Positions 4,248 through 41,906 of a DNA stretch of 64,000 nucleotides are shown here, one piece after another. How positions within the stretch are numbered: position 1 is the stretch's first letter; every line of letters starts with the position of its first letter. The translations under genes were made by a program, and so were the position numbers. The notes under the pieces are model-generated. The model made no database searches. It was given only the letters and a program-made list of their open reading frames with translations, and was not told the origin of the DNA. The stretch comes from an uncultured virus (IMG/VR IMGVR_UViG_3300021254_000023) (lineage: Duplodnaviria; Heunggongvirae; Uroviricota; Caudoviricetes). The DNA lies in IMG/VR virus record IMGVR_UViG_3300021254_000023. One strand, 5' to 3'.

Positions 4248-4724
4248 TTAAGTACAAAACTTACTCTCTTTAATTTCCCTTTCAACCTGAGAAGAAAGAA
4301 GTCCTCTATGGTATAAAACAAGGACATATGCTTTTTCTTCTCTATTCGTGTCTAGGATTGAATTTATATCATAAAGATTTACAATCTTTCCTTTTATTTT
4401 AAGAACAGACATATTTCTGTTATAAATAACACTGTCTTCTCCGATTTTATACAAAAGGTCAAATGTAGTAGGATCCCTAAGAGGGAATAGCTCATTTATT
4501 CCAATAACACGGCCTGGACTCTCTAAGAAATGTATCTCTGGGGAATAGAAAAATTTTCTTTTAAACTCGTTATCCTCAGATAGGTAATCATAAAAATCAG
4601 ACCACCCAATTAAAATATCATCCTCAGATTCTCCAATAGTCCATGGACACCCCTTATCATCTAGGTACTTAGTAAATTCGTATCCACTATCTGCTGAAGC
4701 GGCCCTGATTAATACTTTTAACAT
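4248..4724 (-). CDS. Hypothetical protein
   Basis: 158-aa ORF co-oriented with the ATP-grasp gene. Confidence 0.6.
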   Translation of the reverse strand: MLKVLIRAASADSGYEFTKYLDDKGCPWTIGESEDDILIGWSDFYDYLSEDNEFKRKFFYSPEIHFLESPGRVIGINELFPLRDPTTFDLLYKIGEDSVIYNRNMSVLKIKGKIVNLYDINSILDTNREEKAYVLVLYHRGLLSSQVEREIKESKFCT

Positions 4725-5442
4725 AGTCCCAAGCTCTTTTTAACATAAGAGGTAATTTTTGATAATCACTAAAACCATAAAGTCCGCAACTAACAAACTC
4801 ATGAGCTTCCATGACGACGGTCATAATAACACCTTCTTTATTCTTAATGACGGCAAAATCCATTGTTAAGGCAGGACAAGTTAAGCCGGATATCCTAATA
4901 GCCCTTTTTATTTTAGATGGTTCCGGGAAGACAAAAGGATCTCCTGAATACGGCTGACAAGCTATAACCTCACCTCCCCATACAAAACATCTCCACTCTG
5001 ATAAAATATTGAGAGGTAAACGGAATTGATAATCTTGATTAGGGTCAAGAGTAGATAGGTCCGTAACCACACCATTTATACTATCTTTTAAGAAAAGAGT
5101 GGACTTAACATAAAGAGGTGTTGTTGATTTAAATTTTTCAGGTAAATCAGCTACTTTACCTACCCAAGCACCACCCGTCCAAGTATCATTATCAAAGAGG
5201 GGAGTTGGAATATTAATAGGCTTAATATCTATCCCTGAGAATACTTTAACAAACTCAATAGTTCCAACAGGTATCCAATCTAAATCAATAATGTCTCGTT
5301 TAGCCTGAAGCTCCTCTAAAGACATATAGGTAATTGAAAAGGGTTCTTTGCGCCAATTCCAATACTCTTGGGCGCGTTCTAATTCAAAACAAAAATCTAA
5401 TGTAACTTTTCCGTTAATTGTTTGAATAATAAATTTCATCAT
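4687..5442 (-). CDS. ATP-grasp (R2K/DUF4343-like) protein
   Basis: IPVGTIEFV, SEWRCFV, TMDFAV, VMEAH..SCGLYG motifs; start moved to ATG at 5442 next to promoter motif. Confidence 0.75.
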   Translation of the reverse strand: MMKFIIQTINGKVTLDFCFELERAQEYWNWRKEPFSITYMSLEELQAKRDIIDLDWIPVGTIEFVKVFSGIDIKPINIPTPLFDNDTWTGGAWVGKVADLPEKFKSTTPLYVKSTLFLKDSINGVVTDLSTLDPNQDYQFRLPLNILSEWRCFVWGGEVIACQPYSGDPFVFPEPSKIKRAIRISGLTCPALTMDFAVIKNKEGVIMTVVMEAHEFVSCGLYGFSDYQKLPLMLKRAWDYVKSINQGRFSR

Positions 5443-5537
5443 ATCACCTATAAGGTTGTGAGAAAATAAAAGGAGAAAAACTTCTCCTATTTTTTTTAGT
5501 CGCCGTCCTTTCAAAGTCCGGCTCCGCTGTTCATTAC

Positions 5538-6464
5538 TCATTCACAAGAGCTGAAGAAAGGGAACACATGGTACCTGCAATCCAGGTAATCGTAATAGTC
5601 CCAGCGGTCCCAGCGACCACCACTGCCCAGGTACCAAACCGAATCGGCGCTTCGCATGGAGGATGAGTAAAACCAATAACCCCAAGGTATGTTCTCTAAG
5701 CCAAGGGCAAACCTAGTTATATTAATCTCCGCCAAAGACAGGAATGCTTCTTTAAGCTCACCAATGGCCGGTACGTATCCACCAAGCTTTCTAGCTTTCT
5801 CAAAGGCGGGGAACTCTAAGTCAGGGTTTTTAAGTAAAATATCCCTCTGATTTTCCTCACCACTCATGTCACGGTTGGCTTCTTCAAAATTCATATTCTT
5901 GGCCGTATTAATGATTCGTGAAGTACAAAATGCTACGTCCTGGAACCACTCGGTGGAGACTATGTGTTTGCCGACCTTAATACCAATCACACCTTTTCTC
6001 TTCTGACCTTCCTGAACACTTACTATGCTTTTATCCTCTAATAGTACCTCTAATGCAAACTGGGGAACAAGGGACTCTAAAGTCTTAGTGTAGAGTTGTT
6101 CTGTAGCTCGGGAAACAGCGTCTTTAGTAATATGTAATTTCCTCGCGGCTACCTGATTCAGGTCATCTTGTATCCACATTCTCGTTCCTGCTGGGATTGT
6201 GGCCTTGAAAATCTCTCCGCCAGTACCATTCCTTCTAGCTTCGACAGGATTTAGGTAAGCATGTATAGCTCCACCGTTTAAGGAAAACTTATATCCATAT
6301 TCGTCAAAGTTAGGGTCCCCGGAGGGAATAAGATCCTTTCCTAGTGTGACAGGACAACCTTGGTAAGGAGTTTTATATCCGTCTGTGCCTTTCTTTAAGA
6401 CTTTATAAACTGTTATATCTTCTTTTGTTACAAATCCGTTTTTATTTCCGATATATAAACACAT
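5538..6464 (-). CDS. Protein with C-terminal C-type-lectin/DUF1566-like domain; probable DGR target
   Basis: YVPAIGEL...YSSS...VW...RYHVFPF architecture; C-terminal codons almost all NNC/NNT (CGC, GAC, TAT, TAC, GAT, TGC). Confidence 0.65.
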   Translation of the reverse strand: MCLYIGNKNGFVTKEDITVYKVLKKGTDGYKTPYQGCPVTLGKDLIPSGDPNFDEYGYKFSLNGGAIHAYLNPVEARRNGTGGEIFKATIPAGTRMWIQDDLNQVAARKLHITKDAVSRATEQLYTKTLESLVPQFALEVLLEDKSIVSVQEGQKRKGVIGIKVGKHIVSTEWFQDVAFCTSRIINTAKNMNFEEANRDMSGEENQRDILLKNPDLEFPAFEKARKLGGYVPAIGELKEAFLSLAEINITRFALGLENIPWGYWFYSSSMRSADSVWYLGSGGRWDRWDYYDYLDCRYHVFPFFSSCE

Positions 6465-6569: not shown

Positions 6570-8507
6570 TTAAGAAACTATTTCAAAACCAGCTACTTTT
6601 CTATTCTCTTCTGGTTTCCATATTTGTATAGCTTTAGCAACAAACCATTCCGAAATATCAGTTGCCTTAGCTTTTCTATTTATAGACAACTCGCTATATA
6701 TCTGATTGAGCGTGGACTTAATATCTTTCGAAGAATATCTATATCCTAGCTCAAAAGAAGATTTAACTCTATCCCTGAGGGCCTCAGATTTAGTATCTGC
6801 AACCATTAATTCTTTTAATTCATTGTCTCTATAATGATGGGCTTTACAGGTAGTAGTTCCGAGATATCCATAATAGTCTTTAAATCTAGGATCTCTAATC
6901 TCGAATTCAAGACGTCTTGTTATGTAATCGTTTCCTGAGAAAGAATCTCTAAACTTACAATATAACTCAAGTCGGCCATCAAAAGTAGTATAACTGTTAA
7001 ATTCCTCTAAGAACAGTTCAACATACTCTTCATCTCGATGATGAAAATCCTGTTGTTCGACACTTAAACTCTCATCTTGGAGAGAGCTAATGGCTCGAGT
7101 AACACTAATTCTATCTTGGTAATCTTCTTGAGCGACTTCCCAAGCTCTCTCATGGGCAATTTCAATAAAGTTATTATAGACAGGTCTATCTAGCTTCTCG
7201 GAAATACTCATAAAGTTATCACTATATAGACTCAATCCCTTCTTCAAAAGCTTGGCGTAATACCCTTTATATAATGCGAGGTTTACTCTTCTACCGTCGT
7301 CATCCATGTTATCATAGTAATTCCTCAACAGAGTCTCAGTATCTGCTTTTCTTTGAGCTTGGAGCTTTTCGAAGTCTTCTCGGGTTATCTTATTGCCTTC
7401 TCTAAGAACTTTGTAGAAAATGACTATGTTATTTTTGAATGGATTTTCTCTATCTCTTTGTCTACCAGCTATCTGTGGGAGATCAAGGGAAATATCAACG
7501 GCTAAACACTGAAGATTAGGATCAGCAAAGATATAGGTGGATGCACACTTGCTATAGAAGTCGGCACCTATGTAACAGGTGGAGGTACAGAAAGTAAACA
7601 TCTTATTAGGTTCGTTTTCCATTGGAATCTGACCACGAGTAAAACCAACCTCCTTTAAGGCCTGGATGTTCTTCTCAGTTTCACTACAAAGGATATTGAC
7701 TTCTGAGGGATCAAAATTACCATTTCTTAAGATCCGAGTAATATCCTTGACGGAATTAAAATAGAAAACAGCCTCCTTACTCTGACAAACCTTTCCTTGA
7801 TCATTAACCGTGATAGGGAAATTTCCCTCTCGGTAGTTTTCGATAATTCTCATAGCTTCTTTAGGGAGAGACTTAACTAAACGTCTCTGTATGATCAAGG
7901 TATCAACACTTCCTGATTTACTCCAATCAAGTTGGTAATAGTCTAGGCTAGCAAATTCTGGGATTCTACTTAAGTACTTCTCAAGCATTGGAGTAGCACT
8001 GAGAAAGAGAACATTAGGACATTCGTGAATAGTCTCTAGGAAATTATTCTCAACCCCTGCTTTGAAGTAGGCGTCGACGAAAATTGACTGAAACTCATCC
8101 ACGACAAAGATAAACTGATCTAAAAGATTACGAGACTTTAAGTAATCAACAACATAATGAGTAGAGTCATAGGTAACCATAAACTTAATAGCCTGACCAG
8201 TGGTTAAGCAGGATAGGATATGATTAGCCATGATATCACTTAGTGAGTCTATATCTTTAAAATCCTTTATTTCATTCTTCAGGTAGATAATATTCTTTTC
8301 CTCTTGATGTTTTCTGGCTTTATTTTCCAAGAGCATTTTCCTAGGGGAACAAAGAACAACATGTCTGTTATTAGTCAAACATAATTCGGTGTAACCACAT
8401 CCGGTCACACCTTTATCAACAATACATTGCCCACTCGGTAATTCATAATCACTCCATTCGGAAATATATCTAGTTCCAAAGGGAACTGTCATTGGAATTA
8501 TATTCAT
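6570..8507 (-). CDS. SF2 helicase-like protein (copy 1), degenerate Walker A
   Basis: TGCGYT, VDEFQ, LSATP, FYFNSV, YIGADF, QIAGRQR motifs; basic C-terminal tail (RKAKATDISEWF). Confidence 0.75.
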   Translation of the reverse strand: MNIIPMTVPFGTRYISEWSDYELPSGQCIVDKGVTGCGYTELCLTNNRHVVLCSPRKMLLENKARKHQEEKNIIYLKNEIKDFKDIDSLSDIMANHILSCLTTGQAIKFMVTYDSTHYVVDYLKSRNLLDQFIFVVDEFQSIFVDAYFKAGVENNFLETIHECPNVLFLSATPMLEKYLSRIPEFASLDYYQLDWSKSGSVDTLIIQRRLVKSLPKEAMRIIENYREGNFPITVNDQGKVCQSKEAVFYFNSVKDITRILRNGNFDPSEVNILCSETEKNIQALKEVGFTRGQIPMENEPNKMFTFCTSTCYIGADFYSKCASTYIFADPNLQCLAVDISLDLPQIAGRQRDRENPFKNNIVIFYKVLREGNKITREDFEKLQAQRKADTETLLRNYYDNMDDDGRRVNLALYKGYYAKLLKKGLSLYSDNFMSISEKLDRPVYNNFIEIAHERAWEVAQEDYQDRISVTRAISSLQDESLSVEQQDFHHRDEEYVELFLEEFNSYTTFDGRLELYCKFRDSFSGNDYITRRLEFEIRDPRFKDYYGYLGTTTCKAHHYRDNELKELMVADTKSEALRDRVKSSFELGYRYSSKDIKSTLNQIYSELSINRKAKATDISEWFVAKAIQIWKPEENRKVAGFEIVS

Positions 8508-9095: not shown

Positions 9096-10160
9096 ATGAA
9101 AGAAGAAATAAACAATAAAAATCGATTAAAGATTATTTTTCGACCGTTTTTACCAGAAACTAATTCTTCCTCTTCACATTCCCTTGTTATTACACAAGGC
9201 ACCCCTTATATCCTTCCGGGAGATCCTCTCTGGGATGTTCCGATCGATCAATTAACTGGTAAACTAAAGATTACTGGTTATGCATCATTCGGTCGTGGAT
9301 CCAATGTATATAACGGTGTTTATGCAAAGATTCAGTACACTGCAGCAGCTTTGTGCTATTGGGCAAGGAAAGAGAGAGACTCTCATGCAGGTCTTCTTCG
9401 ACTGGAGAAGATCATTAAGGATGTAACTGGTGTCCCAGGAGTAATTTGGGAATGGATCCCTGATTATTATAAACGCCTATTCACGGCCTATCAGGATCCC
9501 AACGAGTTTTTAAAGTATGGGGAAGAAGAGGAATTTGGTTGGCCCGACGTGGACCATGAAGGAACGGATCGTTTTCCTGAAGTCTTAGAGTCTGATCAGA
9601 CTATAGCAGATTTCATATTTTCTCCAACTTCTGTCCTCTATACTGGGGACGATGGAGGAGCACCTTCTGTGCAGTTTTTTGGAAGAATAGAGCCCAAAGC
9701 CATTCTTCATGTGGAAATTCCTGAACCTATTGGACGAATAGATATACCCCTTTATAAGTGGCCATGTAACGTACTTAGTGAAATAGGAGATCTTCTAGGG
9801 AAAGGGCCGCTTGATTCTGTAGTTTTTGAAAGAGGAATCAACCCGGGTGAATATACCGTTCGAACTAAGGACGCCAGAGATCGGGAACGTATTCTCTTAG
9901 ATAATCCAACTGGGAGTGGTCCAAAAGTGGAACAAGACCAAGGACGATTCTACTTCGCTGGAGTAAATTATTTTAATATTTTCACTGAATATCCAAAGGA
10001 AGAGAAATTATATTGGTTTAGTCCGGCTCTTCCAGGCTACATAGATGGTATTAGGAATGCTAATTACTCTTTATCAGATGCTATGCGAGATCATCCTGAC
10101 TTGTGGCTTGGAATACCATGGACTGTTACAATTTTAGAACTAGGAGGAATTACAGTATGA
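9096..10160 (+). CDS. TNSS-motif protein preceding radical SAM gene
   Basis: N-terminal FLPETNSSSSHSL; internal FIFSPTSVLYTGDD. Confidence 0.75.
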   Translation: MKEEINNKNRLKIIFRPFLPETNSSSSHSLVITQGTPYILPGDPLWDVPIDQLTGKLKITGYASFGRGSNVYNGVYAKIQYTAAALCYWARKERDSHAGLLRLEKIIKDVTGVPGVIWEWIPDYYKRLFTAYQDPNEFLKYGEEEEFGWPDVDHEGTDRFPEVLESDQTIADFIFSPTSVLYTGDDGGAPSVQFFGRIEPKAILHVEIPEPIGRIDIPLYKWPCNVLSEIGDLLGKGPLDSVVFERGINPGEYTVRTKDARDRERILLDNPTGSGPKVEQDQGRFYFAGVNYFNIFTEYPKEEKLYWFSPALPGYIDGIRNANYSLSDAMRDHPDLWLGIPWTVTILELGGITV

Positions 10161-11164
10161 TGCTATTTACAAGAGAGTATTATCCCGGGACTTATATAAA
10201 TGGGAATTATTATGTGACGGGAAATCCTACTACCGGGACAAGAATTAAAAGAACCCTTAGGGTGGGGGAGGATTTTAAACCTATCTTCCCAGATTCTATA
10301 GACTTAAAGATAACTGGAGTTTGTAAGAAGGGCTGTCCTTTCTGCCATGAAGATTCTAGTCCTAATGGAAAAGTAGCTAACTTAGAGAATCTTAAGGCAT
10401 TTCTAGAACCACTCCCAAAGGTTGGAATAGAGGTTGCCATTGGTGGAGGAGATATATTTACTTGTCCTGACCTGACATATGACCTAGTTAAATGGTTGAT
10501 TGGTAATTTTCAACCGCGACTAACAATATCTTATCAGAATTATGAAGAATTAGCCGATACTGTTGTGGGAGGAGTACTAAACTATACTAAATTCCCCGAA
10601 GGTTCTATTGAGGAAAAATTAGCTTATCTCCTAGAGGAAATTCCTATCGGGGTAAGTCTAAATAAGTACGTAGAAAATCCTATTCCAGATCAATTAGTAT
10701 CGTCTTCTTTCCATTTTAGTGGAGATAGGATAGTGTATCATGTTATTGTCGGGGTTATTAATCCAGAAGATCTTTGGGCTATGTGGATAAGTAAAGCCCG
10801 TTATAAGAAAATACTCGTCTTAGGATTTAAACAATTCGGTCGTGGTATATCCTATAATATTCCGGATTTAACTAGGACAAGGGAGGTTATAGAACGAATA
10901 CTTACTCGCCAAAAGAATCTTTTCACTGGGGACCTAAAGAAGGTTATCGCTTTTGATAACTTAGCCATAGAGCAACTTGGAATAAAAGACCTACTTCCTA
11001 AAGAAGAGTGGGATTTATTCTATCAGGGGGATGAATTTACTGCTTCTATGTATGTTGATGCCGTAGAAGAAACTGTAGCTCCCACCTCAAGAACCCCAAA
11101 ACCCGAAAGAATCTCCTGGAAAGATACAACAATTTTAAAGTACTTTAATGAAAACCATCGCTAA
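10157..11164 (+). CDS. Radical SAM protein 1
   Basis: CKKGCPFCHE (CxxxCxxC), EVAIGGG; ATGA overlap with upstream gene. Confidence 0.9.
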   Translation: MMLFTREYYPGTYINGNYYVTGNPTTGTRIKRTLRVGEDFKPIFPDSIDLKITGVCKKGCPFCHEDSSPNGKVANLENLKAFLEPLPKVGIEVAIGGGDIFTCPDLTYDLVKWLIGNFQPRLTISYQNYEELADTVVGGVLNYTKFPEGSIEEKLAYLLEEIPIGVSLNKYVENPIPDQLVSSSFHFSGDRIVYHVIVGVINPEDLWAMWISKARYKKILVLGFKQFGRGISYNIPDLTRTREVIERILTRQKNLFTGDLKKVIAFDNLAIEQLGIKDLLPKEEWDLFYQGDEFTASMYVDAVEETVAPTSRTPKPERISWKDTTILKYFNENHR

Positions 11165-11696
11165 AAAAGAGAAAATATTTGCTTTAGCAGGTATAAATCC
11201 TACTTGGAGATATAGGAGATTAGAACGACCTACAGGGAGAATAGGGTGGGCATACCCATATTGGATAACTGAGGAAGGTATTCCTATCATTATAGATCCC
11301 TATAGGTGTATAGTTTTTTGGCCTTCCCAATACCCTGAACCAGAGAATATTGATCCAGATCCCTATGAAAATGTTGATTGGGGAAATTGGATTATCACCA
11401 AGAAGAGTGGAGAGAAGCCTTACATACGAAATGAATATACAAGGAGTACTTGGAATTATAATGTACTGTATGAAACGGGCGTATACGAAGTTAAGGATAC
11501 TAAGTGGGGAGATACCTATGAGATTCAACTTCTCTGTTGGGATGTTGAGTATGAATTTCAAACATTTCTCAGAACCCCTCTTAAAGTAAATGCAATTATA
11601 GAATCCGAGACTTCACGCCTGGAGGATGAATTTTATAGACATATATTTAAACACAATGGAGAAAATTATAAAGTCGCTCATCTCGACCGTAAATAA
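11148..11696 (+). CDS. Hypothetical protein
   Basis: 182-aa ORF in operon. Confidence 0.65.
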   Translation: MKTIAKKEKIFALAGINPTWRYRRLERPTGRIGWAYPYWITEEGIPIIIDPYRCIVFWPSQYPEPENIDPDPYENVDWGNWIITKKSGEKPYIRNEYTRSTWNYNVLYETGVYEVKDTKWGDTYEIQLLCWDVEYEFQTFLRTPLKVNAIIESETSRLEDEFYRHIFKHNGENYKVAHLDRK

Positions 11697-12069
11697 AAAG
11701 ATGAAAGTGACCTATAAGGGAGGCGGCTGGATTGATGCTAGACGAACCCCCACTAGTGGTCAAAACATGGTTAATTCCTTGGAAGAATTTATTGATGCTG
11801 TCTTTAATCAGGAGTGTTATGACATTCCTGAACTTAGAGAGGTAGAGGAACTGTTAGGGGGTCGTCTCTTCAGTTGTACCTTAGAGGGGGAAGACGAAGC
11901 AAGACGTAGATATAAACAGGCCACTATGACTATGATTAGCCCTGAGGATATCGAGAACCCAAGTGAAGAACTCATAGAGCTCTTAGAAACCGCCAGAAAG
12001 TTCTTTGGAGGAACTAAAATCAGATTTAATAGTGTACCAACCAAAATAAGATATAGTGTAGAATGGTAG
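11656..12069 (+). CDS. Hypothetical protein
   Basis: ORF in operon; ATG at 11656. Confidence 0.6.
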   Translation: MEKIIKSLISTVNKKMKVTYKGGGWIDARRTPTSGQNMVNSLEEFIDAVFNQECYDIPELREVEELLGGRLFSCTLEGEDEARRRYKQATMTMISPEDIENPSEELIELLETARKFFGGTKIRFNSVPTKIRYSVEW

Positions 12070-13520
12070 AAAAGTGGAGATTAGTAGAGTCATGTCGACT
12101 TGTTATAAACAAGGAAGCAAAGGAAGTTACTTTCCGGCCAACTGATGTAAAGAAAGCTAGTAACGAGGGAATACTCCTTAGTGAGCCCGAGTTTGATTTA
12201 AAGTTTGATGATACTCTAATTCCATGGATTAAGTGGAAAGAAGAGTATTATATTGTAAAAAATTTCATTCCCACTAATGAAGCTAAAGGAAAACTAATCC
12301 GAGCCATGTCTGGTTTAGAGGGAACCGGGCTAGATCCAGTTTTCAGCGAAGAGGCAGGAGATGCTGTTTGGTTTGTAAAGGCTGGTACCCCTGAATATAG
12401 GGAGGCTAGTGATGAAATGATTCGTCGGCTGAATTGCAGCATGATGAAGAAAACTAGGAAATGGCAGGTTGGTCATAGATATGATAGCGAGGATAAAACA
12501 TACTACTATCTTGGAAAGTTTGTTAGTCATCGCAAGAACTACGATTCTAGTGAATTTCTCCGTGATCCAGTAGAATGTCATCTCGTCATTGAGAAGATCC
12601 CAGAAGGAGTCAAGACAATTCCTGATGTTCTTAGGACCTGTCTTTATGGAAGTACTGGGAAAGAGTTCATTCACACTCTATGGGGTAATCTTCCATTGAT
12701 GGTTGACTCTGGTCAGGCCTTGACTAATTCAGAGGAACCTTGGGATTTACAAAGTCTTTATATGGATCAACTCAAAAATGTATATGAGACTGGAGCTCCC
12801 TTGGGGAAGGCCTTAGAGATATTTACTTATACTGATAAACCAGATGACGTTTTCTTGTCTACCTCTGTTGACCTAGATCCTATTATAGGACAGGTGAAGA
12901 TTGCCATGATGAATCTGCTCATTGAGTGGTGGGCTTTGAAATATAATGGCGACACCCAGTATGTTGGGCCAGATCAGAGTGAGGAAAGAAACATAAAAGG
13001 TCTTATTGCTCTCTTCTCAGGGAATCTTGACCAAGAGAATATTTTTGGAACCCTTTATTACCCGGAACTTTTTAAATTAATTAATATTGACCTAGTTAGT
13101 ATTGCTAGGGAAGCTATAATTAATTGGGGAGGGGGCTATATGTTGAAGAGCGATTTTGACTATTATGTCAAAGTATTACCTCTCTGGAGAAAACATCATA
13201 GAGAAGTTGTTGACTTAGATCAAACGGTTTCGTCAGGAAGTACAGATAATTATATCGGAAAGAGATTTAATCCTGACCTAGCTAGTTCCTTAGAGAAACT
13301 ACTTATGTCTGCACTATCTAATGGTGGAGACGGAGTAACCTCTTGGAAAGAAATTAATCGAGGAACAGTATCTAAACCAGATATAGCGATTCAGGTTAGG
13401 GTTCTTCTTTCTGATATTTTGGATTTTGCAGAACCTAGTGAAACTCTTAAGAATGATATTATTAACTCAGGATTTCAGGAGTTAAATATTAAATTTATGA
13501 AAGATAAAGGCATAAAATGA
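12063..13520 (+). CDS. Hypothetical protein
   Basis: 485-aa ORF. Confidence 0.8.
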
Positions 13521-13798
13521 AAGAACAAGCCATAATTAAAGAAGGAATTGTTATAGAGGAACTTGGGAACTCCATGTTTAAAGTTCAACTCGATATGGTT
13601 GGAGAACCAGTTATCCTCTGTAGCATATCAGGAAAAATAAGAAAATATTATATCCGAATCTTAACTGGTGATAGGGTTAAAGTAGAGATGTCCCCCTATG
13701 ATTTAACAAAAGGACGAATAGCTACTAGACTCAAGGCTCCAGGTCAAGAGGAGGTAATAGGTAACAATAGTAATAACCAAAAAAAGAAAAAGAAATGA
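13517..13798 (+). CDS. infA: Translation initiation factor IF-1
   Basis: [17 protein letters not shown]...[32 protein letters not shown]. Confidence 0.95.
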
Positions 13799-14508
13799 GA
13801 AGACCAAAGTTGACAAACACCATGATTGGCAATGTCTATCCCTTCTTCCTGAACAATCAGGCATTGAAAACGTACTATCTTTATCAGATAGTCAGTCCAG
13901 GATCCCTTAGCGACTATACGCCGCTCCTAACGTTCCAGAAGGTATGTGAAAGAACGGGGGATAAAGACTTCAGTGCTGTAGAGAGGAAGGATTGCTGCAT
14001 GTATGGAGCAGATATCATTGCCACTCTCTTAAAAAGTCGTAAAAACATAAAAGCAGAAGCAGTCAAGTATCTCTCTGAACAGATCTTGGCTCGTGGTGAT
14101 GGCAGTTGGCAGCCTACTCTGTACGAAAATGACGTTGATTTCCCCATCTTTGAGATGGATTGGAACAACAGTGTAGCAAAAGCCCTGATAATTGGTCTGC
14201 GTGATGCTCTAAGGTGGCAGCAATATCGCTTCGCACCTGGTTGTAAGATCGATATTCTCTTGACTCCAACAAAGTTTGGTGTTTTTGAGATTAAGGGTGA
14301 TAAAGAGGCTATCTGGTTGGAGCCTGTTGGAGTATATAACAATAGTGACGTGGAGATGAAAAATCCAATCGCTGGAGTAAATATGCAAGAACTCGATTGG
14401 CCGAAGGGTAAGTACACTGGAGCTACTCGTGCGAGTGCTATGAATCGCGTACTCCGCCAGACAGAGTGGAAATCATTTGACAATACTGAAATTAAGGAGG
14501 CCAATTAA
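13795..14508 (+). CDS. Hypothetical protein
   Basis: 237-aa ORF, ATGA overlap with infA. Confidence 0.75.
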
Positions 14509-15018: not shown

Positions 15019-17724
15019 TTACACTACCACAAATGCTTTTTTAGTAGTAGGATCGTAATCTACTGTAAAATTCATTGCATCTGGGGCGTCAATCATTGCT
15101 CGTCCGACTGAGTCTGTTACCCAGCGCTCTATATTACGATTAAGTTCACGTGCGCCAAGACCAGCTGTACATTCGTCGAGAACATGGTTTTTTAGAGCAG
15201 GAGTTACTTTTATCTTTAGGTGACTCTTATTGAGTTGCTTTTTAATTTTTTCTAGCTCTAAGTTAAATACCTTGCTTAGGTCATCTCTTGTGAAATGACG
15301 AAATACAATCTGTCTTGTAAGTCGATTCCTAAATTCAGGCTTAAACTTCTTCTCGATGGCCTTCTGAACAATCTCCTTGTCTTTGCTATGGCGCTCTTCA
15401 TCAGTTGGTTGTGTAAAGCCAACTCTAAGCTGAGATGCCACTTCTTTCGTTCCTATATTAGAGGTGAAGATTATAATCGTATTAGAAAAGTCAATCAGCT
15501 CACCACTACTCAGGTTAATACGTCCTTCATCGAGAATCGGAAGGAGCACGTCATATATATGTTCATTAGCCTTTTCAATCTCATCAAAGAGGAGGACACA
15601 AGATCCACCATTTGTGTCACGAACCTTGATAAGCTCACCAGACTCGTCACTTCTAACATAACCTGGAGCTGCACCCAAAAGTCGAGTTACATCAGCTTCA
15701 GAAGTCATGCTACTCATATCGAACCTTACTAAGGCTTTTTCAGTTCCATAGAAAATTTCTGCTAATTTCTTCGCCAGGTAGGATTTACCTACACCTGTTT
15801 CACCGGAGAATAAGAGTACGCCGTATGGCTTGTTAGCTGGTTTTACTCCAAGGACAGCTCTCTGAATACAGCCCATAACTTCATCAATGGCTTCTGGCTG
15901 ACCAATCACCGTCCGTGTTAACTCTTCACGCAAGAACTTCAGCTTCTCTCTATCGTTCTGAGCTACCTTGTCATACGGAATTCGGCTTATATTAGAGACG
16001 GCCATGATAACGTCTTTGTCCTCAACTTCGGTCCAATTAGCTCTTTTACTAGCTTCTTTGGCCATGGCCTTAGTCTCTCTTTCAATAACTTCATTCAAAG
16101 CTTTTTCCTCATTCCTGAGGCGTTCTGCTTCCTCGAAGTCCTGATCCTCCATGACAGCCTTCTTCTTAAGCTCAATGACTTCTGCTAGACGTTTCTCAGC
16201 TTCTGTCACGTTCTCTTTCTTTTCCGTGATTCGTTTCAGGGATGCCAGAGAACCAGCCATGTCCATGGTGTCGACAGCCTTGTCAGGGAAGTTTTTATCG
16301 GCCATATACTTACCACTCAACTCAACACAAAGGTCAAGAATGGCAGGTGTATAACGTACACGGTGGAACTTTTCATAATTACTAGAAATTCCTTTTAGAA
16401 TCTTTAGAGTTTCTGCTTGAGTTGGTTCCTCTACCATGACCTGAGTGAAACGTCGATTCAAGGCTTTATCCTTCTCAATATATTTACGATACTCAGCAGG
16501 GGTCGTTGCACCAATCATCTGGAATTCTCCTCGTGCTAAATAAGGTTTGAGAATATTACCAGTATCGTTCTGACCACCAGCCGAACCTGATACTAAAGTA
16601 TGAAGCTCATCTAAGGCAATGATAATATCTTTGTTATTGCATACTTCTTTAATGAGTTTCTGGAGTCGCTCTTCAAATTGACCACGATACTGCGTACCAG
16701 CTACTAGGTCATTGAGGTTAAGACTACATATCCTTTTCCCCTGAAGCTTCTCTGGAACATCCCCCGAAGCAATTCTCTGAGCGAGTTTTTCTATGATGGC
16801 AGTTTTACCAGTACCAGCCTCTGAGAGAAGAGCAATATTTGGTTTACGTCTTTTCAAGAGAATCTCTATCATAGACTCTACCACGTCATCTCTGCCTATA
16901 ACTGGATCAAATTCTCCGTTTGCTGCTTTCTTTGTCAGATCTACACTATAACGATCTAGGTTTGGAGTGTCAGAATTGGGGTCTAGTTCAGTTCCATCTA
17001 TGGCTTCATGACGACCTGCCTCTTCAAATTCTTTTTCCTCATCTCCTTCGTTATTTCTTCCATTATTAGCTTGTGGAGTAGGAATAGTACCTCCTGATTT
17101 TTCTAAGATTTCTCCTATGAATTTTTCTGCTTCAGCTGGATTTCCTTCGGTTACTGTCTTCACCAAAGAATCCATAAGACCAGCTACGTTTTTAGCATCT
17201 GCTTTTCTATTAGATACCATTATTTCATATAATACTTTAGATTCAAATCCCTCCATATGAAGGTATTCAATACAATCCTCGTCTTCTCCATCTAATTTAA
17301 GTGCTGCCATGAGAACGACGTCTGTATCAAGTTCGCTCATTCTTTCAGGGAAGAGTTGTTTACTTTCCCCTAAGGCATCGTCAAAGATATCCTTCATGTT
17401 ATCACTTAACATTATCATCGTAGGATCGAACAGGTCTAAGTCGTCACTGTATGTTGGTGCGACCTCCTCTTCAGTATCTGTTAATCCTGCTAGAGCTTCT
17501 AGGATTCTCTTTTTATCAGGATCTTTTAACCCCGAAAAGAAATCCTTCACAGATTTGTTATATTTCCTGTCGGCTCCTTTCCCACTAAAATAGTAGTAGA
17601 ACAGGCTATAAATAAAATTACCGACTGTAATTTCTGCAATCTTTGCTTCTTGTGCCGCTTGGTAAGAAGCTTTTAGAATTTTTGTTAATTCTTCTGTGTT
17701 ATCAAAAAATTTCATTCTTTTCAT
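15019..17724 (-). CDS. clpC: ClpC/ClpA/ClpB-family AAA+ chaperone
   Basis: Two NBDs ([25 protein letters not shown]), DPVIGR, PDKAVD, UVR-like middle segment [10 protein letters not shown]. Confidence 0.9.
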
Positions 17725-25153: not shown

Positions 25154-25942
25154 ATGGACAATACGTTTAGTTTTCTAAATCTTTGTAGTATTTATAAGAC
25201 AGAGGGATACGCCAACTATGAATTGGGTACTTATCCCTGTTTCGCAAGAACTCTCAATAGGTGGGGAAACCATAGAGTTGACAACGTTCGGCAGGTACAC
25301 TATGAAATCTACCTGATGAAGGGTTTAGATGCAATTAAAACTAAGAGGAATAATGCATGTCTCCTGAACAAGAAGGAGATTGAGGGTTGGCTCAAAATAG
25401 CTAAAACTTACCATCCGTTTAAGTATAAACTGGAAAACAGTTCGTATAAACTGGAAGGTAAAGAATGCGAAGCTTGGAAACTACATATCGATATGGTGGG
25501 TAATTATACTCAACATAAATGGATCTTGACATCTCTACGTGGATTCTATGAGTATCCATTCAATATGTGGTTTATCGATGCACATCGCCTAAGAGCAACG
25601 GATCCTCAAAAATTCCGTGGGGAGTCTATTCTCAATATTATGGAGACTATTATTTCATCGTTCCCCAACAGCTATCAGTCAGATCAGTCGTTGTTACTAC
25701 CTAACCGTCAATTCCATAGTAAAAACTATGTGAAAAAGAAGATTGGAGAAGGTATTCAATATATCACAAAAATTTACGACGAAAAGACAACGGGGGATTT
25801 TAAGCGAATCGCTGAACCCGGAGCTAGTTGCCTACTCTCCTTTGATTGGTGGATGAATGAGAAGTCCTTTGCAGAGCGAGCAAAGATTTATCATGAGAAT
25901 TATGATAAAATTAAAGAACAAACGAAGCCAGAAGTAGTATGA
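25154..25942 (+). CDS. Hypothetical protein (first gene of amidoligase cluster)
   Basis: 262-aa ORF; ATGA overlap with next gene. Confidence 0.75.
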   Translation: MDNTFSFLNLCSIYKTEGYANYELGTYPCFARTLNRWGNHRVDNVRQVHYEIYLMKGLDAIKTKRNNACLLNKKEIEGWLKIAKTYHPFKYKLENSSYKLEGKECEAWKLHIDMVGNYTQHKWILTSLRGFYEYPFNMWFIDAHRLRATDPQKFRGESILNIMETIISSFPNSYQSDQSLLLPNRQFHSKNYVKKKIGEGIQYITKIYDEKTTGDFKRIAEPGASCLLSFDWWMNEKSFAERAKIYHENYDKIKEQTKPEVV

Positions 25943-26559
25943 AAGTATTTGTAGTAGGACCTAGTATTGGGTATTCAAGATTTATTGAAGACCTAGAACT
26001 GGTCGATGACATGAAGGACGCACAGGTAGTCCTTTTCACTGGAGGCGAAGATATCAATCCAGAATTGTATGGATGTAAAAAGCATCAGTCTACTTGGTTT
26101 AATGCCAAGCGTGATCAATTCGAGGTTGAATCATTCAAGAAAGTCGCCTTAGACCAACTTTGCGTGGGTATATGCCGTGGATTTCAATTATTCTCAGCCA
26201 TGTATGGCGGGAAATTAGCTCAAAACGTATCAGGTCACTGGTGCGGACGGAGTCACAGCATAACCAACGGGAAGATAACTTATGAGATTACATCTCTTCA
26301 TCATCAGATGGTATATCCATTTAACCTGGATCAGAAGGATTTTGAGATTCTCTACTGGGCTGAAGGAATAAGCCACTGCTATGAGGGAGATGGAATTGAT
26401 CCTAAGTTTTATAGTATGTTTGGTGAACCTGAGATAGGTCTCTTCCATAGGGAAGGGTTGCCAACATGTCTCGGTGTACAAGGTCATCCTGAGATGATGG
26501 CAGGTTCACCAGTTGCAAAGATGATTAATGATTTAATTCGTCAAAATATAAAGAGATGA
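25939..26559 (+). CDS. Class I glutamine amidotransferase (peptidase C26-like)
   Basis: FTGGEDI, GICRGFQ, SLHHQ, GVQGHPE. Confidence 0.9.
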   Translation: MKVFVVGPSIGYSRFIEDLELVDDMKDAQVVLFTGGEDINPELYGCKKHQSTWFNAKRDQFEVESFKKVALDQLCVGICRGFQLFSAMYGGKLAQNVSGHWCGRSHSITNGKITYEITSLHHQMVYPFNLDQKDFEILYWAEGISHCYEGDGIDPKFYSMFGEPEIGLFHREGLPTCLGVQGHPEMMAGSPVAKMINDLIRQNIKR

Positions 26560-27149
26560 CTATAAGAGATATAACAATTGGAGCAGATCCCGAACTGTTT
26601 ATCATAAACAAGAAAACGGGAAAAGTCGTATCATCCATAGGATTAATTCCCGGTGAAAAGGGAAATCCTTGGGTAGGTGAAGACATGCCTACAGGATTTG
26701 GCTTGGAGATTGATAATATCTTGGCAGAATTCAATATACCTCCTGCTGTAGATGGACTTAGTTTCGTCAACAACGTCGAGTATATGAAGAAGTATATTGA
26801 AAGATTTGTAAGTGAAAAGAATCCAGACCTTGGAATTCTTTGCGCCGCAAGTCAATCAGTGCCATCAGATCAACTTCAGTCAGATGAGGCAAAACAGTTC
26901 GGCTGTAGCGTCGACTACAATGCCTATACTGGTGGTCCTAACCCTAAGCCAAAGGGTGAGACAACGAATCTCCGCTCGGCCGGATTCCACATTCACATAG
27001 GTTATAAAAACTATAATGCAGATACCTCTATCCAGTTGGTCAAATATCTGGATCAGTATCTCGGAATCCCATCGATTATTCGAGACCAGGACAAAAAGAG
27101 AAGATCTCTATACGGTAAAGCCGGTTGTTTCCGGTTAACCGGTTATGGT
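26556..27149 (+). CDS. phiEco32-like COOH.NH2 ligase type 2, exon 1
   Basis: IGADPELF, DNILAEFN, FGCSVD, RSAGFHIHIG, RRSLYGKAGCFR..YG; continues after intron. Confidence 0.9.
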
Positions 27150-27616: not shown

Positions 27617-27721
27617 AGATATACCCGCTGCGAGGAGAGTTTCTGCACTTAATTGTGTGGGCTCTCATTCAGCGGTGATAAAGAAATAAATCATTAAATT
27701 AATAAAAAAAATTAGCAGCGG

Positions 27722-39197: not shown

Positions 39198-39545
39198 ATG
39201 AATGAAATAAAACTACATGAACTAGTAGCAAATGTATTTAAAGATTATCCATACAGCGCATGTTTGTATATAGGAAAATATAGGTTTAAAACAGAAGGGG
39301 ATACTGTTCCTGAAGTAGATGTATGTTTCCCGTGGGAAGCAACTGATATAGAAGATATACCTTTTTCTGTTTATAGTAGAGGACCAATTATCACGACTAA
39401 GCCAAAAGAGAGTATAGATAAATTACTTATGTTCTTCTTGGATGATAGTCCAACGAATTATTTTACGATGGTCCACAGAGAAGCCGGTAAAGATTATTAT
39501 ATGTACATAAATAGACATTCAGATATATACATAACAAAAGGATGA
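39198..39545 (+). CDS. Hypothetical protein
   Basis: ORF with promoter motif upstream. Confidence 0.65.
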   Translation: MNEIKLHELVANVFKDYPYSACLYIGKYRFKTEGDTVPEVDVCFPWEATDIEDIPFSVYSRGPIITTKPKESIDKLLMFFLDDSPTNYFTMVHREAGKDYYMYINRHSDIYITKG

Positions 39546-40111
39546 TTAAAGTAAAAAGTATCACTGACGTTATTACTAATTCAAGTACGGAGGTATTTGT
39601 TTTGAAATTAACAAGCAAAGAAGCAGAGTGGCTCGAGAATGTAAGAATAACTTCCGCAAGAAAAGCTTTGAAAGCCAATAAGGAAAACAAACAATGGCTT
39701 AGACGTTTAAATGAGGAAGATAGGAAGGACTATACTTCATTAGATTTTCTAATGGATGAAGTAAGTGATTGTACAGTCATTCTAGCGCCATGTTTTACTA
39801 GAGAGGGCCTCTTGTGGGGATTATCCAGTAAAGAGGATAAGAAAAATCTTTGGGTTAATAGTGACTGGGAATATATCAGAAAAATTATAGGCGGTAAAGC
39901 CATCGAAGAGACAGACGAGGATCCACACTTTAGGCCATTTAATAAGTGGCTAGCAGACAATATTGATTGGATCTCTGAAAAGATGAAAGATGTCTGGTTA
40001 ATGGAGGTTAATAACTATGATGAAAAGATTTATGAAAAGTTAGACCTCTATGCTCACATAGATAACATACCGCACGATAAAAAAGTTCTATTTTATGAAT
40101 GTAGGCATTAA
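39542..40111 (+). CDS. TNSS-motif protein A
   Basis: N-terminal KSITDVITNSSTEVF; C-terminal YECRH. Confidence 0.8.
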   Translation: MIKVKSITDVITNSSTEVFVLKLTSKEAEWLENVRITSARKALKANKENKQWLRRLNEEDRKDYTSLDFLMDEVSDCTVILAPCFTREGLLWGLSSKEDKKNLWVNSDWEYIRKIIGGKAIEETDEDPHFRPFNKWLADNIDWISEKMKDVWLMEVNNYDEKIYEKLDLYAHIDNIPHDKKVLFYECRH

Positions 40112-40514
40112 AAGCATTACCGACGTCATAACCAACTCTAGTACAGAAGTATTCGTAGTTAGAAAGAAAGGTAAACAAGTAGCTGAAAATGGTTACTTTT
40201 CTGGAATAAATACGCCACAGTCTGTTAACTGGGAACCCAAGGAGATAACTTGGAAGTGGTTAAGATCAAATCAGGGGAAGTCTGAATGGATGATGATATG
40301 TGACCTAGTCGATAAGCCATATACTGAGCTATCAACTTCCGGAGAGGAGCCCAGTTGGGGTAGATGGAATGATTGGATTACTATTCACAAACATAGAATT
40401 CAGGACAGAGCTATTGGGTTATGGTTCTTAACTATTCGAGACGGATTCGGTGGATTCCTAGATATGGTGAAGGATATAAAAGATTACATTGTCTGGCATG
40501 AATGTAGGCATTAA
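40095..40514 (+). CDS. TNSS-motif protein B
   Basis: N-terminal KSITDVITNSSTEVF; C-terminal HECRH. Confidence 0.8.
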   Translation: MNVGIKSITDVITNSSTEVFVVRKKGKQVAENGYFSGINTPQSVNWEPKEITWKWLRSNQGKSEWMMICDLVDKPYTELSTSGEEPSWGRWNDWITIHKHRIQDRAIGLWFLTIRDGFGGFLDMVKDIKDYIVWHECRH

Positions 40515-40791
40515 GAGTAAGACAGATATCATAACCAATTCTAGTACGGAGGTTTATGAAATTGTTGTTAATGGTTCCCCGAAAAGAATTGAAGGAATAC
40601 TTCAGGGGATCTTAGATACTCTTGATTGGGTTGGACATGATATAGCTACAATGACGGTCAAAGAGAATATTATAACTTTGACTGGTTGTGAGGACAATTC
40701 TATCCCACTTCCCTTGATAGACTTATTAGAGAAAGGAAAGTTTAAAGAGTGGTTTAGTGAAATTAGTGAAATTAAAAATAAAAGAATATGA
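40498..40791 (+). CDS. TNSS-motif protein C
   Basis: N-terminal KSKTDIITNSSTEVY; EDNSIP motif; ATG at 40498. Confidence 0.8.
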   Translation: MNVGIKSKTDIITNSSTEVYEIVVNGSPKRIEGILQGILDTLDWVGHDIATMTVKENIITLTGCEDNSIPLPLIDLLEKGKFKEWFSEISEIKNKRI

Positions 40792-41906
40792 AAAATTTTA
40801 CAGGCTGGGGAACAAAAATTAGAAGAGACCTTAGCAAGAATTACTATGCCATATGGCAAAATCTAGTAACAACACGACTTGACCTAGGGGATGATATTGC
40901 CCTAGAACCAGAGAAATCTGAGTTCATGGATGTTGGAATAACTTCTAGGTGTAATGCATGTTGTCCGTTCTGCTATGTCAGTGCAAGCGATAAAGGTCTT
41001 GATTACAAGAACATTGCCAAGACATGGAAAAAGTGGATGGCAACAATGCCCGCTGATAGACCAATTGATCCGAATCTTCTTTCCGAGGACGACCCTTTAA
41101 AGGAAGTTTTTGACGATAAAAGAACTCCGAAAGAACTGCTCTTAGATATAGCAGAGATTGGAGCTGGAAAAAAGAAGACTAATGATGCAGGAGAAGGAAT
41201 AGATGACCTAGAATTAATTCTTAAGATCAAATCCTTTACTGCGTTAGGACTTCCACTGGTAGAAACATTTAGGCCTTATCAGATAGCTTGTGGTTCGATT
41301 GGTGAACCTACAATTCATCCAGAATTTGTAGAATTTTTACAAGCTGTTTTTGAAACTGGCGTAGTTCCAAATTATACAACAAATGGAATTGTACTATCAG
41401 ATTATAGAACACAGGAATGTAAAGATCTTTTAGAAGCAACTAAGCAATTCTGTGGTGGTGTGGCGGTTAGTTTTGGTAATAAGAAACTTCACCCACATGC
41501 AAGAGTAGCTATAGAGAACTTAATCCTATACGGGGAGTGCAAAGTAGTCATACATCATCTCATAAGCGACAAAGCTAGTGTGGACGACATGATTAACCTA
41601 GCCAAAGAGTATAAAGACCGACTCCATTATCACGTCCTATTGCCGCTTATGGCACATGGTCGCAGTAAGGAAGGTTTACAGGAAGGCGTTTTCGAGTATA
41701 TGTATGAAAGATGTGAAGAGGAAGATGTGACAAACCTAGCTTTCGGTGCTAACTTTGCTCCACAGCTAAAAGCACATCCAGACCTTTTCCCAGTCTATGA
41801 GTATCCTCGGGAGATTTATAGTAAAAACGTACTTCTCCAGGAAAACAAAGTCATAATAACACCAAGTAGTTTTAACTTAAAGCCATGCAAGACGATAGAG
41901 TTGTAG
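40788..41906 (+). CDS. Radical SAM protein 2
   Basis: CNACCPFCY (CxxxCxxC), GEPTIHP, YTTNG; ATGA overlap with TNSS protein C. Confidence 0.9.
   Translation: MKNFTGWGTKIRRDLSKNYYAIWQNLVTTRLDLGDDIALEPEKSEFMDVGITSRCNACCPFCYVSASDKGLDYKNIAKTWKKWMATMPADRPIDPNLLSEDDPLKEVFDDKRTPKELLLDIAEIGAGKKKTNDAGEGIDDLELILKIKSFTALGLPLVETFRPYQIACGSIGEPTIHPEFVEFLQAVFETGVVPNYTTNGIVLSDYRTQECKDLLEATKQFCGGVAVSFGNKKLHPHARVAIENLILYGECKVVIHHLISDKASVDDMINLAKEYKDRLHYHVLLPLMAHGRSKEGLQEGVFEYMYERCEEEDVTNLAFGANFAPQLKAHPDLFPVYEYPREIYSKNVLLQENKVIITPSSFNLKPCKTIEL

What the first reader, a model, noticed from the sequence alone, without database searches (positions are those of the whole stretch)
9096..11164. TNSS-motif protein translationally coupled to a radical SAM enzyme (locus 1)
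Seen: the 354-aa protein has ETNSSSSHS near its N-terminus and overlaps (ATGA) the radical SAM gene. The same pairing recurs independently at 39.5-41.9 kb with a divergent radical SAM. Inference: the TNSS segment may be the modification site or recognition tag for the radical SAM enzyme, giving a phage protein-maturation system. I know of no characterised function for it.
Basis: partly seen in the sequence, partly recalled or inferred. Interest (0 to 1): 0.75.

Follow-up and report, generated by a model that had tools for sequence, protein, structure and literature searches.

The report
Phage radical-SAM enzyme with tagged proteins
A large gut phage carries two iron-sulfur "radical SAM" enzymes, each beside proteins that begin with a short serine-rich tag specific to that enzyme; the tag is predicted to dock into the enzyme's active site, which points to an undescribed system in which one enzyme chemically modifies many unrelated proteins.

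Summary
Observation confirmed. ETNSSSSHS is at residues 21-29 of the 354-aa protein, and the gene overlaps the radical SAM gene by ATGA. Locus 2 has three tagged genes, not one.

The pairing is far beyond chance. 78 of 80 loci of enzyme family 1 and 79 of 80 of family 2 carry tagged genes, each family with its own tag dialect and no cross-pairing. Salmonella phage Arash fuses the two. Related phages keep 8-11 tagged genes scattered over the genome with one cognate enzyme. A third dialect in Clostridia sits beside SPASM-bearing relatives (5 of 5 genomes with a true tag).

The enzyme folds like SkfB/SuiB but lacks auxiliary-cluster cysteines. A predicted complex scores 0.81 (best control 0.02): the tag's first strand extends the enzyme's N-terminal sheet, like a RiPP leader, and the tag region contacts barrel-lining residues.

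Best reading (0.62): leader-guided radical modification of the N-S-S loop on many unrelated proteins; the chemistry is not shown. Main rival (0.22): swappable non-covalent subunits. My paper searches found no description. This scan noted the same system earlier on other DNA.

The parts
9096..10160 (+). Tagged protein, dialect 1 (354 aa): N-terminal tag, a conserved ~190-aa domain (FG-W/R, K..Y, IDH, F.F...S, G-N/D-D; phrog_28997-like family) and a C-terminal extension
   Evidence: AF2 model pLDDT 83.6 with residues 1-30 at 50-72; no PDB fold match, best Z 3.3
9126..9182 (+). The tag, residues 11-29: docking strand L11-R16, then P-F-L-P-E21-T-N-S-S-S-S-H28-S
   Evidence: R16, N23, S24, S25, S26, H28 invariant in 150 of 150 aligned homologues; residues 7-34 form the main predicted interface
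10142..10160 (+). Shine-Dalgarno AGGAGG and ATGA stop/start overlap (translational coupling inferred)
10157..11164 (+). Radical SAM enzyme family 1 (335 aa; phrog_16999): N-terminal three-stranded sheet, partial TIM barrel, cysteine-free C-terminal hairpin in place of SPASM/twitch
10193..10255 (+). N-terminal three-stranded sheet (residues 13-33), RRE-wing-like; strand 3 pairs with the tag strand in the predicted complex
10322..10345 (+). C56xxxC60xxC63 [4Fe-4S]/SAM motif
   Evidence: invariant in 64 of 64
39542..40111 (+). Tagged protein, dialect 2 (189 aa; S-I-T-D-V-I-T-N-S-S-T-E)
40095..40514 (+). Tagged protein, dialect 2 (139 aa)
40498..40791 (+). Tagged protein, dialect 2 (97 aa from the ATG at 40498); ATGA overlap with the enzyme gene
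40788..41906 (+). Radical SAM enzyme family 2 (372 aa, C55xxxC59xxC62, ~60-aa insertion after the cluster motif, no SPASM cysteines)

Best explanation
A one-enzyme, many-clients protein-modification system of large phages. The radical SAM enzyme recognises a ~20-residue N-terminal tag. The tag's first strand adds to the enzyme's N-terminal three-stranded sheet, as a RiPP leader adds to an RRE, and the invariant T-N-S-S-S loop is threaded into the barrel. There the 5'-deoxyadenosyl radical abstracts a hydrogen, most likely from a serine of N-S-S, and installs a covalent change. Each enzyme clade reads its own tag dialect, and clients can be encoded anywhere in the genome. SHOWN (computed): gene linkage, dialect specificity, fusion, dispersal, fold. 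PREDICTED: binding and its geometry. INFERRED: catalysis on the tag. Chemistry, all inferred and given modification: redox-neutral serine elimination or backbone cleavage that frees a new N-terminus (about 0.4; favoured because the phage enzymes lost the auxiliary clusters that oxidative enzymes use); Ser-to-formylglycine oxidation (0.2); side-chain cross-link (0.2); epimerisation (0.1; no invariant extra cysteine); other (0.1). The likely purpose is to activate or arm a diversifying set of small phage proteins in host takeover or counter-defence (inference).
For: Linkage: dialect-1 tags within 3 kb at 78 of 80 family-1 loci, dialect-2 tags at 79 of 80 family-2 loci, no cross-pairing. By enzyme clusters at 70% identity among enzyme-selected loci: 29 of 32 and 10 of 11. 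In reverse, 48 of 49 tag-selected loci hold the enzyme; the exception is a 2-kb contig. All 112 tags in 56 representative loci are on the enzyme's strand. Annotated phages: the tag-domain query hits 25 records, all among the 26 hit by the enzyme; Arash gp146 is a tag-domain/enzyme fusion. Genome level, 43 viral records: true dialect-1 tags in 24 of 24 records with enzyme 1 and 0 of 19 without (the one pattern hit, in G029, has in-frame stops). Among 23 records not chosen for enzyme 2: both 4, tag only 1, neither 18. Dispersal: G003 has one enzyme 2 and 11 tagged genes, 8 of them over 30 kb away; G019 has one enzyme 1 and 8 tag matches, 6 distant. In dialect 2 only the tag is shared (mean column identity 12%; T-N-S-S invariant in 72 of 72). 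Third dialect: all 5 Clostridia genomes with a true tag have a related enzyme directly adjacent, 4 of the 5 over the Pfam SPASM cut-off. Fold: best matches SkfB (Z 18.0, rmsd 3.8, 265 aligned) and SuiB (Z 17.6, rmsd 3.9, 280 aligned). Complex: ipSAE 0.81 against best control 0.02; runs share at least 69% of contacts; partner pLDDT at least 64; that mark was reached by 116 of 157 solved and 2 of 215 mismatched pairs, counts that hold only roughly here. The interface is enriched in conserved enzyme residues (28 of 81 against 41 of 254, p 8e-4). Leader-on-strand-3 binding is known for CteB (PMC6231123 passages).
Against: No modification is shown. The complex gives no distance from any tag residue to SAM, and it may partly echo solved leader-RRE complexes. 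A docked loop fits a subunit or an inhibitor plug as well. A permanent fusion (Arash gp146) is odd for an enzyme-substrate pair. Dialect-1 type-A proteins have further near-invariant residues (Y81, D153-H154, N-D-N) that may mark a function of their own. G007 (92% complete) has two dialect-2 tagged genes and no enzyme 2 found. The loci are related phages, so the counts are not independent and the Fisher p of 5.6e-4 overstates support. The enzyme lacks the RRE helices and the SPASM/twitch cysteines of its best structural matches.
Confidence: 0.62

Rival explanations
1. The tagged proteins are interchangeable, unmodified partner subunits. The tag completes the open barrel, and the variable bodies choose or deliver the true substrate (a host protein, or a nucleotide as in viperin).
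For: A fusion exists. The predicted interface is large and includes the partner's C-terminal extension (residues 203-263). Viperin is the third structural match (Z 14.8). The published analogue Avap2 binds a third protein, Avs2 (PMC11564622 passages). The bodies are folded and diverse.
Against: The tag region contacts residues on the barrel strands that line the substrate cavity (47-51, 92-96, 121-123, 193-195, 266-269), leaving little room for another substrate (inference). The enzymes score far below the viperin cut-off (22.8 against 180 bits for enzyme 2, no hit for enzyme 1). Strict invariance of N-S-S across three dialects suits a reacting site.
Confidence: 0.22
2. The tag is a pseudo-substrate plug that keeps a toxic or host-directed radical SAM enzyme silent (an antitoxin-like regulator).
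For: Tight translational coupling of partner and enzyme. In the analogous Avap1-Avap2-Avs2 operon, Avap2 could not be deleted (PMC11564622 passage).
Against: Up to 11 tagged genes with unrelated bodies per enzyme, many far away, are more than an inhibitor needs. Some enzymes have no tagged neighbour within 6 kb (L078, L137).
Confidence: 0.08
3. The tag only docks the client (a true leader), and the radical chemistry falls elsewhere in the client, for example on the conserved C-terminal ends (N-D-N-H, Y-K-G-N, G-Y-D-G, E-x-R-H, Y-H-L-G).
For: Sub-families have conserved C-terminal ends. RiPP leaders are usually not the modified part (established knowledge).
Against: The C-terminal motifs differ between sub-families that share one enzyme. 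Residues 180-190 of the window protein are not among the confident contacts (unnamed residues are uncertain).
Confidence: 0.06
4. Chance adjacency of a low-complexity serine run and a radical SAM gene.
For: Short serine-rich motifs are common: a 5-codon pattern matched as often as its reversed control in four cell genomes.
Against: 78 of 80 and 79 of 80 linkage, dialect specificity, a fusion, and reversed-pattern controls of 0-1 per genome.
Confidence: 0.01

Closest known systems
RRE-bearing radical SAM SPASM/twitch RiPP maturases SkfB (PDB 6efn), SuiB (5v1q) and CteB (5wgg)
   Same: [quoted passage not shown] Predicted partner binding by extending strand 3 of the N-terminal sheet, as CteA does on CteB.
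   Different: Only the three strands are present, without the RRE helices. No auxiliary-cluster cysteines in the two phage clades. The partners are folded 90-670-aa proteins with unrelated bodies, not short precursor peptides. No other gene family recurs in more than 10 of 56 neighbourhood clusters.
Anaerobic sulfatase-maturating enzyme anSME/AtsB (PDB 4k36)
   Same: Radical SAM enzyme acting on a short N-terminal Ser/Cys motif of whole proteins, one enzyme for several clients (established knowledge); fold match Z 13.4.
   Different: The motif is not C/S-x-P-x-R (recalled); no two-cluster SPASM domain in the phage enzymes; the clients are not sulfatases.
Avap1 (radical SAM) and Avap2 (DUF6375, PF19902) of the KpAvs2 anti-phage operon (Bechon et al. 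2024, PMC11564622)
   Same: A radical SAM enzyme of unknown chemistry coupled to a small partner; no viperin-type product was found (passages).
   Different: Host defence operon with an Avs2 NTPase and a single partner. DUF6375 was not hit by the window proteins or by alignment A6. I could not obtain Avap1 for a direct comparison.
phrog_16999 'Fe-S oxidoreductase' (Microcystis phage Ma-LMM01 gp128) and phrog_28997 (unknown function)
   Same: Enzyme 1 belongs to phrog_16999 (E 1.6e-37). 30 of 37 dialect-1 domain sequences hit phrog_28997. gp130, two genes upstream of gp128, carries the tag.
   Different: These are sequence clusters without a described function or link. The window's 354-aa protein itself does not hit phrog_28997, and enzyme 2 and dialect 2 have no matching PHROG.
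Viperin / prokaryotic viperins
   Same: Single-cluster radical SAM enzyme of the same structural group (Z 14.8).
   Different: Far below family cut-offs; here the enzyme comes with tagged protein partners, whose tag is predicted to contact the cavity.

Membership tests
Radical SAM superfamily | CxxxCxxC motif after strand 1 | tested here: met
   C56/C60/C63 invariant in 64 of 64; C55/C59/C62 in 47 of 47
Radical SAM superfamily | Partial TIM barrel fold with GG(G/E) SAM-binding motif | tested here: met
   Model pLDDT 90; the 17 best structural matches are all radical SAM enzymes; G96-G97-G98 invariant
Radical SAM superfamily | Reductive SAM cleavage | not testable with these tools
   needs anaerobic biochemistry
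RRE-radical SAM SPASM/twitch RiPP maturases | SPASM/twitch auxiliary-cluster cysteines | tested here: not met
   0 Cys in the last 110 aa of enzyme 1 and 2 in enzyme 2, against 9-10 in the five Clostridia relatives; no conserved C-terminal Cys column
RRE-radical SAM SPASM/twitch RiPP maturases | Complete RRE (three strands plus three helices) | tested here: not met
   The model has strands 13-15, 18-22, 29-33 and no helix before barrel strand 47-51; definition from PMC6231123
RRE-radical SAM SPASM/twitch RiPP maturases | Substrate N-terminus binds as an extra strand on strand 3 of the sheet | tested here: met
   Predicted only: enzyme residues 28-36 pair antiparallel with partner residues 11-16, expected error 0.6-0.9 A
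RRE-radical SAM SPASM/twitch RiPP maturases | Short precursor peptide with dedicated processing or export genes | tested here: not met
   Partners are 90-670 aa; no other family in more than 10 of 56 clusters
Anaerobic sulfatase maturases (anSME) | TIGR03942/NF010321 score over cut-off; C/S-x-P-x-R substrate motif (recalled) | tested here: not met
   No hit at E 0.05 for either window enzyme; the tag is T-N-S-S-S
Viperin family | NF038283 over 180 bits | tested here: not met
   Enzyme 2 22.8 bits; enzyme 1 no hit; PADLOC pVip only a 45-aa stretch of enzyme 2
Avap1-Avap2-Avs2 operon | Partner belongs to DUF6375 (PF19902) | tested here: not met
   No hit for the four window tagged proteins at E 0.05 or the 150 members of A6 at E 0.01; not among the first 25 of 34 families listed for the 72 members of A7
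Avap1-Avap2-Avs2 operon | Enzyme is an Avap1 homologue | tested here: inconclusive
   PF19902 searches in 301 and 401 genomes found nothing and rang in no control, so no Avap1 locus was obtained
phrog_16999 | Full-length profile match | tested here: met
   Enzyme 1 E 1.6e-37, profile positions 5-286 of 288; enzyme 2 only a 30-aa stretch

The most novel reading that the evidence does not exclude
A portable ~20-residue N-terminal tag, read by orthogonal radical SAM enzymes (at least three enzyme/tag dialects), installs a new post-translational modification at N-S-S, for example radical cleavage that leaves a reactive N-terminal group or an unprecedented serine-derived cofactor. It does so on thousands of unrelated phage and bacterial proteins and switches on an expanding arsenal of phage effectors: a general tag-and-activate system outside RiPP biosynthesis.
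Probability: 0.35. Interest if true: 0.9.

Novelty: new variant of a known kind. Interest (0 to 1): 0.7.

Why it matters
The dialect-1 domain profile alone finds 8,364 protein clusters at 50% identity (E up to 0.001). They occur in Lak megaphages, Microcystis phage Ma-LMM01, a Salmonella phage and other large gut phages, and carry no Pfam or NCBIfam name. If the enzyme modifies the tag, this is a widespread phage protein modification of unknown chemistry. It would explain a large block of 'hypothetical' small phage proteins, and it would offer orthogonal, portable enzyme/tag pairs for site-specific protein chemistry. It is directly testable with two genes. Homologous enzymes carry inteins, a hint that the gene is conserved and under selection.

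Tried and rejected
No whole genome is held for the window, so relatives stood in for it. Single-protein scans of viral contigs found nothing for enzyme 1 and one locus each for the tagged protein and enzyme 2; alignments were needed. tblastn of enzyme 2 against annotated phages gave no match. The ESM Atlas gave only unnamed viral clusters at 0.81-0.84, leads only. The tagged protein has no PDB relative by sequence or by fold (best Z 3.3); the C-terminal half was barely tested, so a new fold is not shown. A profile comparison of dialect-1 sub-types failed internally and was not repeated.

The phrog_1735 gene (43416-45611), near the enzyme here and in Arash, recurs in only 3 of 56 clusters and was rejected as a component; its internal 'TNSSVH' is not an N-terminal tag. 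The downstream genes 11148-14508 are syntenic only in one phage clade (at most 10 of 56 clusters) and were rejected.

The enzyme tree (quick method, careful search unfinished) splits the three enzyme groups. Labels d1/d2 were assigned from the enzyme profiles, so the tree is not a test of tag co-evolution. Enzyme 1 was found in 1 of 300 scored Clostridia genomes (the seed itself; one genome not scored). Of 7 genomes matching the dialect-3 pattern, I dropped 2: G319 (internal, antisense-like ORF) and G277 (does not encode the tag; judged from the matched letters, not fetched). In the RNA data X1 has almost no cover of the two genes; contigs cannot show strand, level or a single transcript. Plasmid tblastn gave one full-length hit, in Deferribacter, not followed up.

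Literature searches with no description of this system: 0 papers; 0. The library lacks most subscription papers, and I read no supplements; family lists in the supplements of PMC7824862 or PMC10288494 could mention these proteins.
Full report
OBSERVATION. The ORF at 9096-10160 encodes 354 aa with E21-T-N-S-S-S-S-H28-S. Its stop overlaps the ATG at 10157 (ATGA), nine bases after an AGGAGG. The downstream protein is 335 aa with C56xxxC60xxC63 and matches phrog_16999 at E 1.6e-37. At the second locus three overlapping ORFs (39542-40111, 40095-40514, 40498-40791) begin with D-[VI]-I-T-N-S-S-T-E and precede a second radical SAM gene, 40788-41906. The two enzymes are distant homologues (hhalign 96%, 18% identity). 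The window is a large phage (ClpB-like ATPase, RtcB, amidoligase operon). Its close relative is a 218-kb IMG/VR record. Contigs from gut metatranscriptomes cover both locus-1 genes in runs X2 and X6, one X2 contig spans the junction (9602-10314), and the upstream intergenic bin has no cover in 4 of 4 runs. Contigs cannot prove transcription or co-transcription.

LINKAGE. Enzyme 1 has 436 relatives and enzyme 2 has 675 in the protein search. In annotated phages, enzyme 1 hits 26 records (Microcystis Ma-LMM01 group, Lak, Salmonella Arash, Thermus YS40). The Ma-LMM01 tag protein gp130 hits 25 records, all among those 26. Lak-B1 and Lak-C1 have 4 and 5 tandem tagged genes after the enzyme. Arash gp146 fuses the tag domain to the enzyme, and YS40_162 carries a variant tag and overlaps the enzyme gene. 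In viral contigs (best 80 of 156 and best 80 of 227 confirmed loci), 78 of 80 enzyme-1 loci have a dialect-1 tag (R-x4-E-T-N-S-S-S-x-H) within 3 kb. 79 of 80 enzyme-2 loci have a dialect-2 tag (S-x-x-D-[IV]-I-T-N-S-S-[ST]-E). There is no cross-pairing. Collapsed to enzyme clusters at 70% identity, the enzyme-selected counts are 29 of 32 and 10 of 11. The four exceptions are YS40 (variant tag), a locus cut by its contig end (L081), and L078 and L137, whose genomes hold cognate tags elsewhere. In reverse, 48 of 49 tag-selected loci hold enzyme 1 (in three the tag gene is broken by a frameshift or stop). The genome-collection hits that I could read lie in phage-like gene contexts (part of that output was cut).

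ONE ENZYME, MANY CLIENTS. Of 50 handles given, 43 records were held. True dialect-1 tags occur in 24 of 24 records with enzyme 1 and 0 of 19 without (23 of the 24 were chosen for enzyme 1 or its tag). Dialect-2 tags occur in 20 of 20 records chosen for enzyme 2. Among the other 23 records, four have both, one has tags only (G007, 92% complete) and 18 have neither. These records are related, so the Fisher p of 5.6e-4 is an overstatement. G003, the window's close relative, has one enzyme 2 and 11 tagged genes in four clusters; eight lie 31-88 kb from the enzyme with no family-1 or family-2 enzyme in their 10-kb flanks. G019 has one enzyme 1 and eight tag matches, six of them distant and confirmed as N-terminal. 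In G002 and G006 the dialect-2 genes lie about 100 and 200 kb from the enzyme. Among 72 dialect-2 proteins only T-N-S-S is invariant and the mean column identity is 12%. The bodies fall into several unrelated sub-families.

A THIRD DIALECT. I tested a recalled motif, F-V-[ST]-N-S-S-S-S-S-F, in 301 Clostridia genomes. Seven matched and two were spurious. In all five true cases the tag is N-terminal (M-K-x-R/K-x-D-F-V-T-N-S-S-S) on bodies of 131-669 aa, and a related radical SAM gene is directly adjacent. These enzymes have 9-10 C-terminal cysteines, and four pass the Pfam SPASM cut-off. None reaches the cut-off of a named NCBIfam enzyme family. All three clades share D49, E/Q92, T123, S167, H195 and S311 (enzyme-1 numbering). 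The phage enzymes are therefore best read as SPASM-lineage enzymes that lost their auxiliary clusters; the direction of change is inferred, as the tree has no root.

STRUCTURE. The enzyme-1 model (pLDDT 90) matches SkfB (Z 18.0, rmsd 3.8, 265 aligned) and SuiB (Z 17.6, rmsd 3.9, 280 aligned), ahead of viperin (14.8), CteB (14.2) and anSME (13.4). It begins with three strands but lacks the RRE helices. The tagged protein folds confidently from about residue 30 on; its first 30 residues score 50-72 alone, and it has no PDB match. In the predicted complex with SAM and a 4Fe-4S cluster the partner scores 0.81 in the median of three runs against a best control of 0.02. The runs share at least 69% of contacts and partner pLDDT is at least 64. 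The mark was reached by 116 of 157 solved and 2 of 215 mismatched pairs, counts that hold only roughly here. Partner residues 11-16 pair antiparallel with enzyme strand 28-36, the geometry described for CteA on CteB (PMC6231123, passages). Partner residues 7-34 are in the interface, as are enzyme residues on the barrel strands, including D49, K51, E92, T123, H195, D267, N268, Y299 and S311. The interface is enriched in conserved positions (28 of 81 against 41 of 254). The output gives no distance to SAM, and likeness to solved leader complexes may have helped the score.

MECHANISM. I commit to leader-guided radical modification of the N-S-S loop (0.62). Linkage, specificity, fusion and dispersal are computed; binding is predicted; catalysis is inferred. 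Loss of the auxiliary clusters favours redox-neutral chemistry (elimination or backbone cleavage) over anSME-type oxidation. The absence of an invariant extra cysteine (42% in family 1, at most 72% in family 2) argues against an EpeE-type epimerase. The main rival is swappable unmodified subunits (0.22), which the fusion and the large interface also fit. An inhibitor plug (0.08) and a pure leader with modification elsewhere (0.06) remain open. The biological purpose is unknown; a diversifying set of host-directed small proteins is my inference from copy number and dispersal.

COMPARISON AND NOVELTY. It works like RRE-guided RiPP maturases and like anSME, but it fails membership of both (no auxiliary clusters, no full RRE, no precursor peptide, different motif). 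The nearest published pairing of this shape is Avap1-Avap2 of KpAvs2 (PMC11564622, passages). The partners here do not match DUF6375, and I could not compare Avap1 directly. Ten paper searches found no description of the tag. Papers seen as passages only: PMC5584929 (names gp128 only as an Fe/S oxidoreductase in a co-expressed cluster), PMC12880540, PMC6231123, PMC10288494, PMC7159879, PMC7824862, bioRxiv 2025.09.30.679545 (138) and PMC11564622. No supplements were read. Earlier notes of this scan describe the same system on other DNA; they are not independent evidence. This window adds two orthogonal dialects in one genome and a genome-level test of cognate pairing. Verdict: a real, undescribed new variant of radical SAM protein modification systems, interest 0.7.

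Noticed in passing
L122:3629-5704 and L103:6422-8563: Enzyme-1 homologues interrupted by inteins with LAGLIDADG domains, inserted just before the GGG SAM-binding motif.
   Followed up: partly
L078:3876-5042: A SAM synthetase-like gene (read from its sequence motifs, not scanned) two genes upstream of an enzyme-1 gene that has no adjacent tagged gene.
   Followed up: no
window 25154-30441: Phage glutamine amidotransferase, COOH-NH2 ligase, Ntn amidotransferase and amidoligase operon: a second peptide/protein-modifying cluster between the two radical SAM loci.
   Followed up: no
window 4687-5541 (-): phrog_7313 protein that looks like an R2K-type ATP-grasp ligase (label recalled), 3.5 kb upstream of locus 1.
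   Followed up: no
window 53593-57298: Six tandem, overlapping + strand ORFs of 175-246 aa without PHROG hits; possibly a paralogue array.
   Followed up: no
window 6570-8507 (-) and 49753-51825 (-): Two orphan 645- and 690-aa proteins; the first has a helicase-like DEF box, and similar C-terminal ends recur elsewhere in related phages.
   Followed up: no
window 13517-13798, 15019-17724, 33086-35008, 48013-49200: Phage-borne IF-1-like protein (label from sequence), ClpB-like ATPase, NAD synthetase and RtcB.
   Followed up: no
L283, L284, L285, L286 (Clostridia dialect-3 enzymes): Four of the five dialect-3 enzymes lack a canonical CxxxCxxC near the N-terminus; the two read in full have widened cysteine spacing.
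   Followed up: no
P0368: A 395-aa protein with two tandem tagged domains, the second tag internal; it may be a fusion or a missed stop.
   Followed up: no
G008:C1:17368-18741: Enzyme-2 gene in two open frames about 470 bp apart, perhaps an intron or insertion.
   Followed up: no
NC_013940.1:138373-139188: Deferribacter desulfuricans megaplasmid holds a near full-length enzyme-1 relative.
   Followed up: no
BFVD A0A6J5LQS4: A 461-aa 'Radical_SAM domain' phage protein is a weak fold hit (E 0.09) of the tagged protein; possibly another fusion.
   Followed up: no
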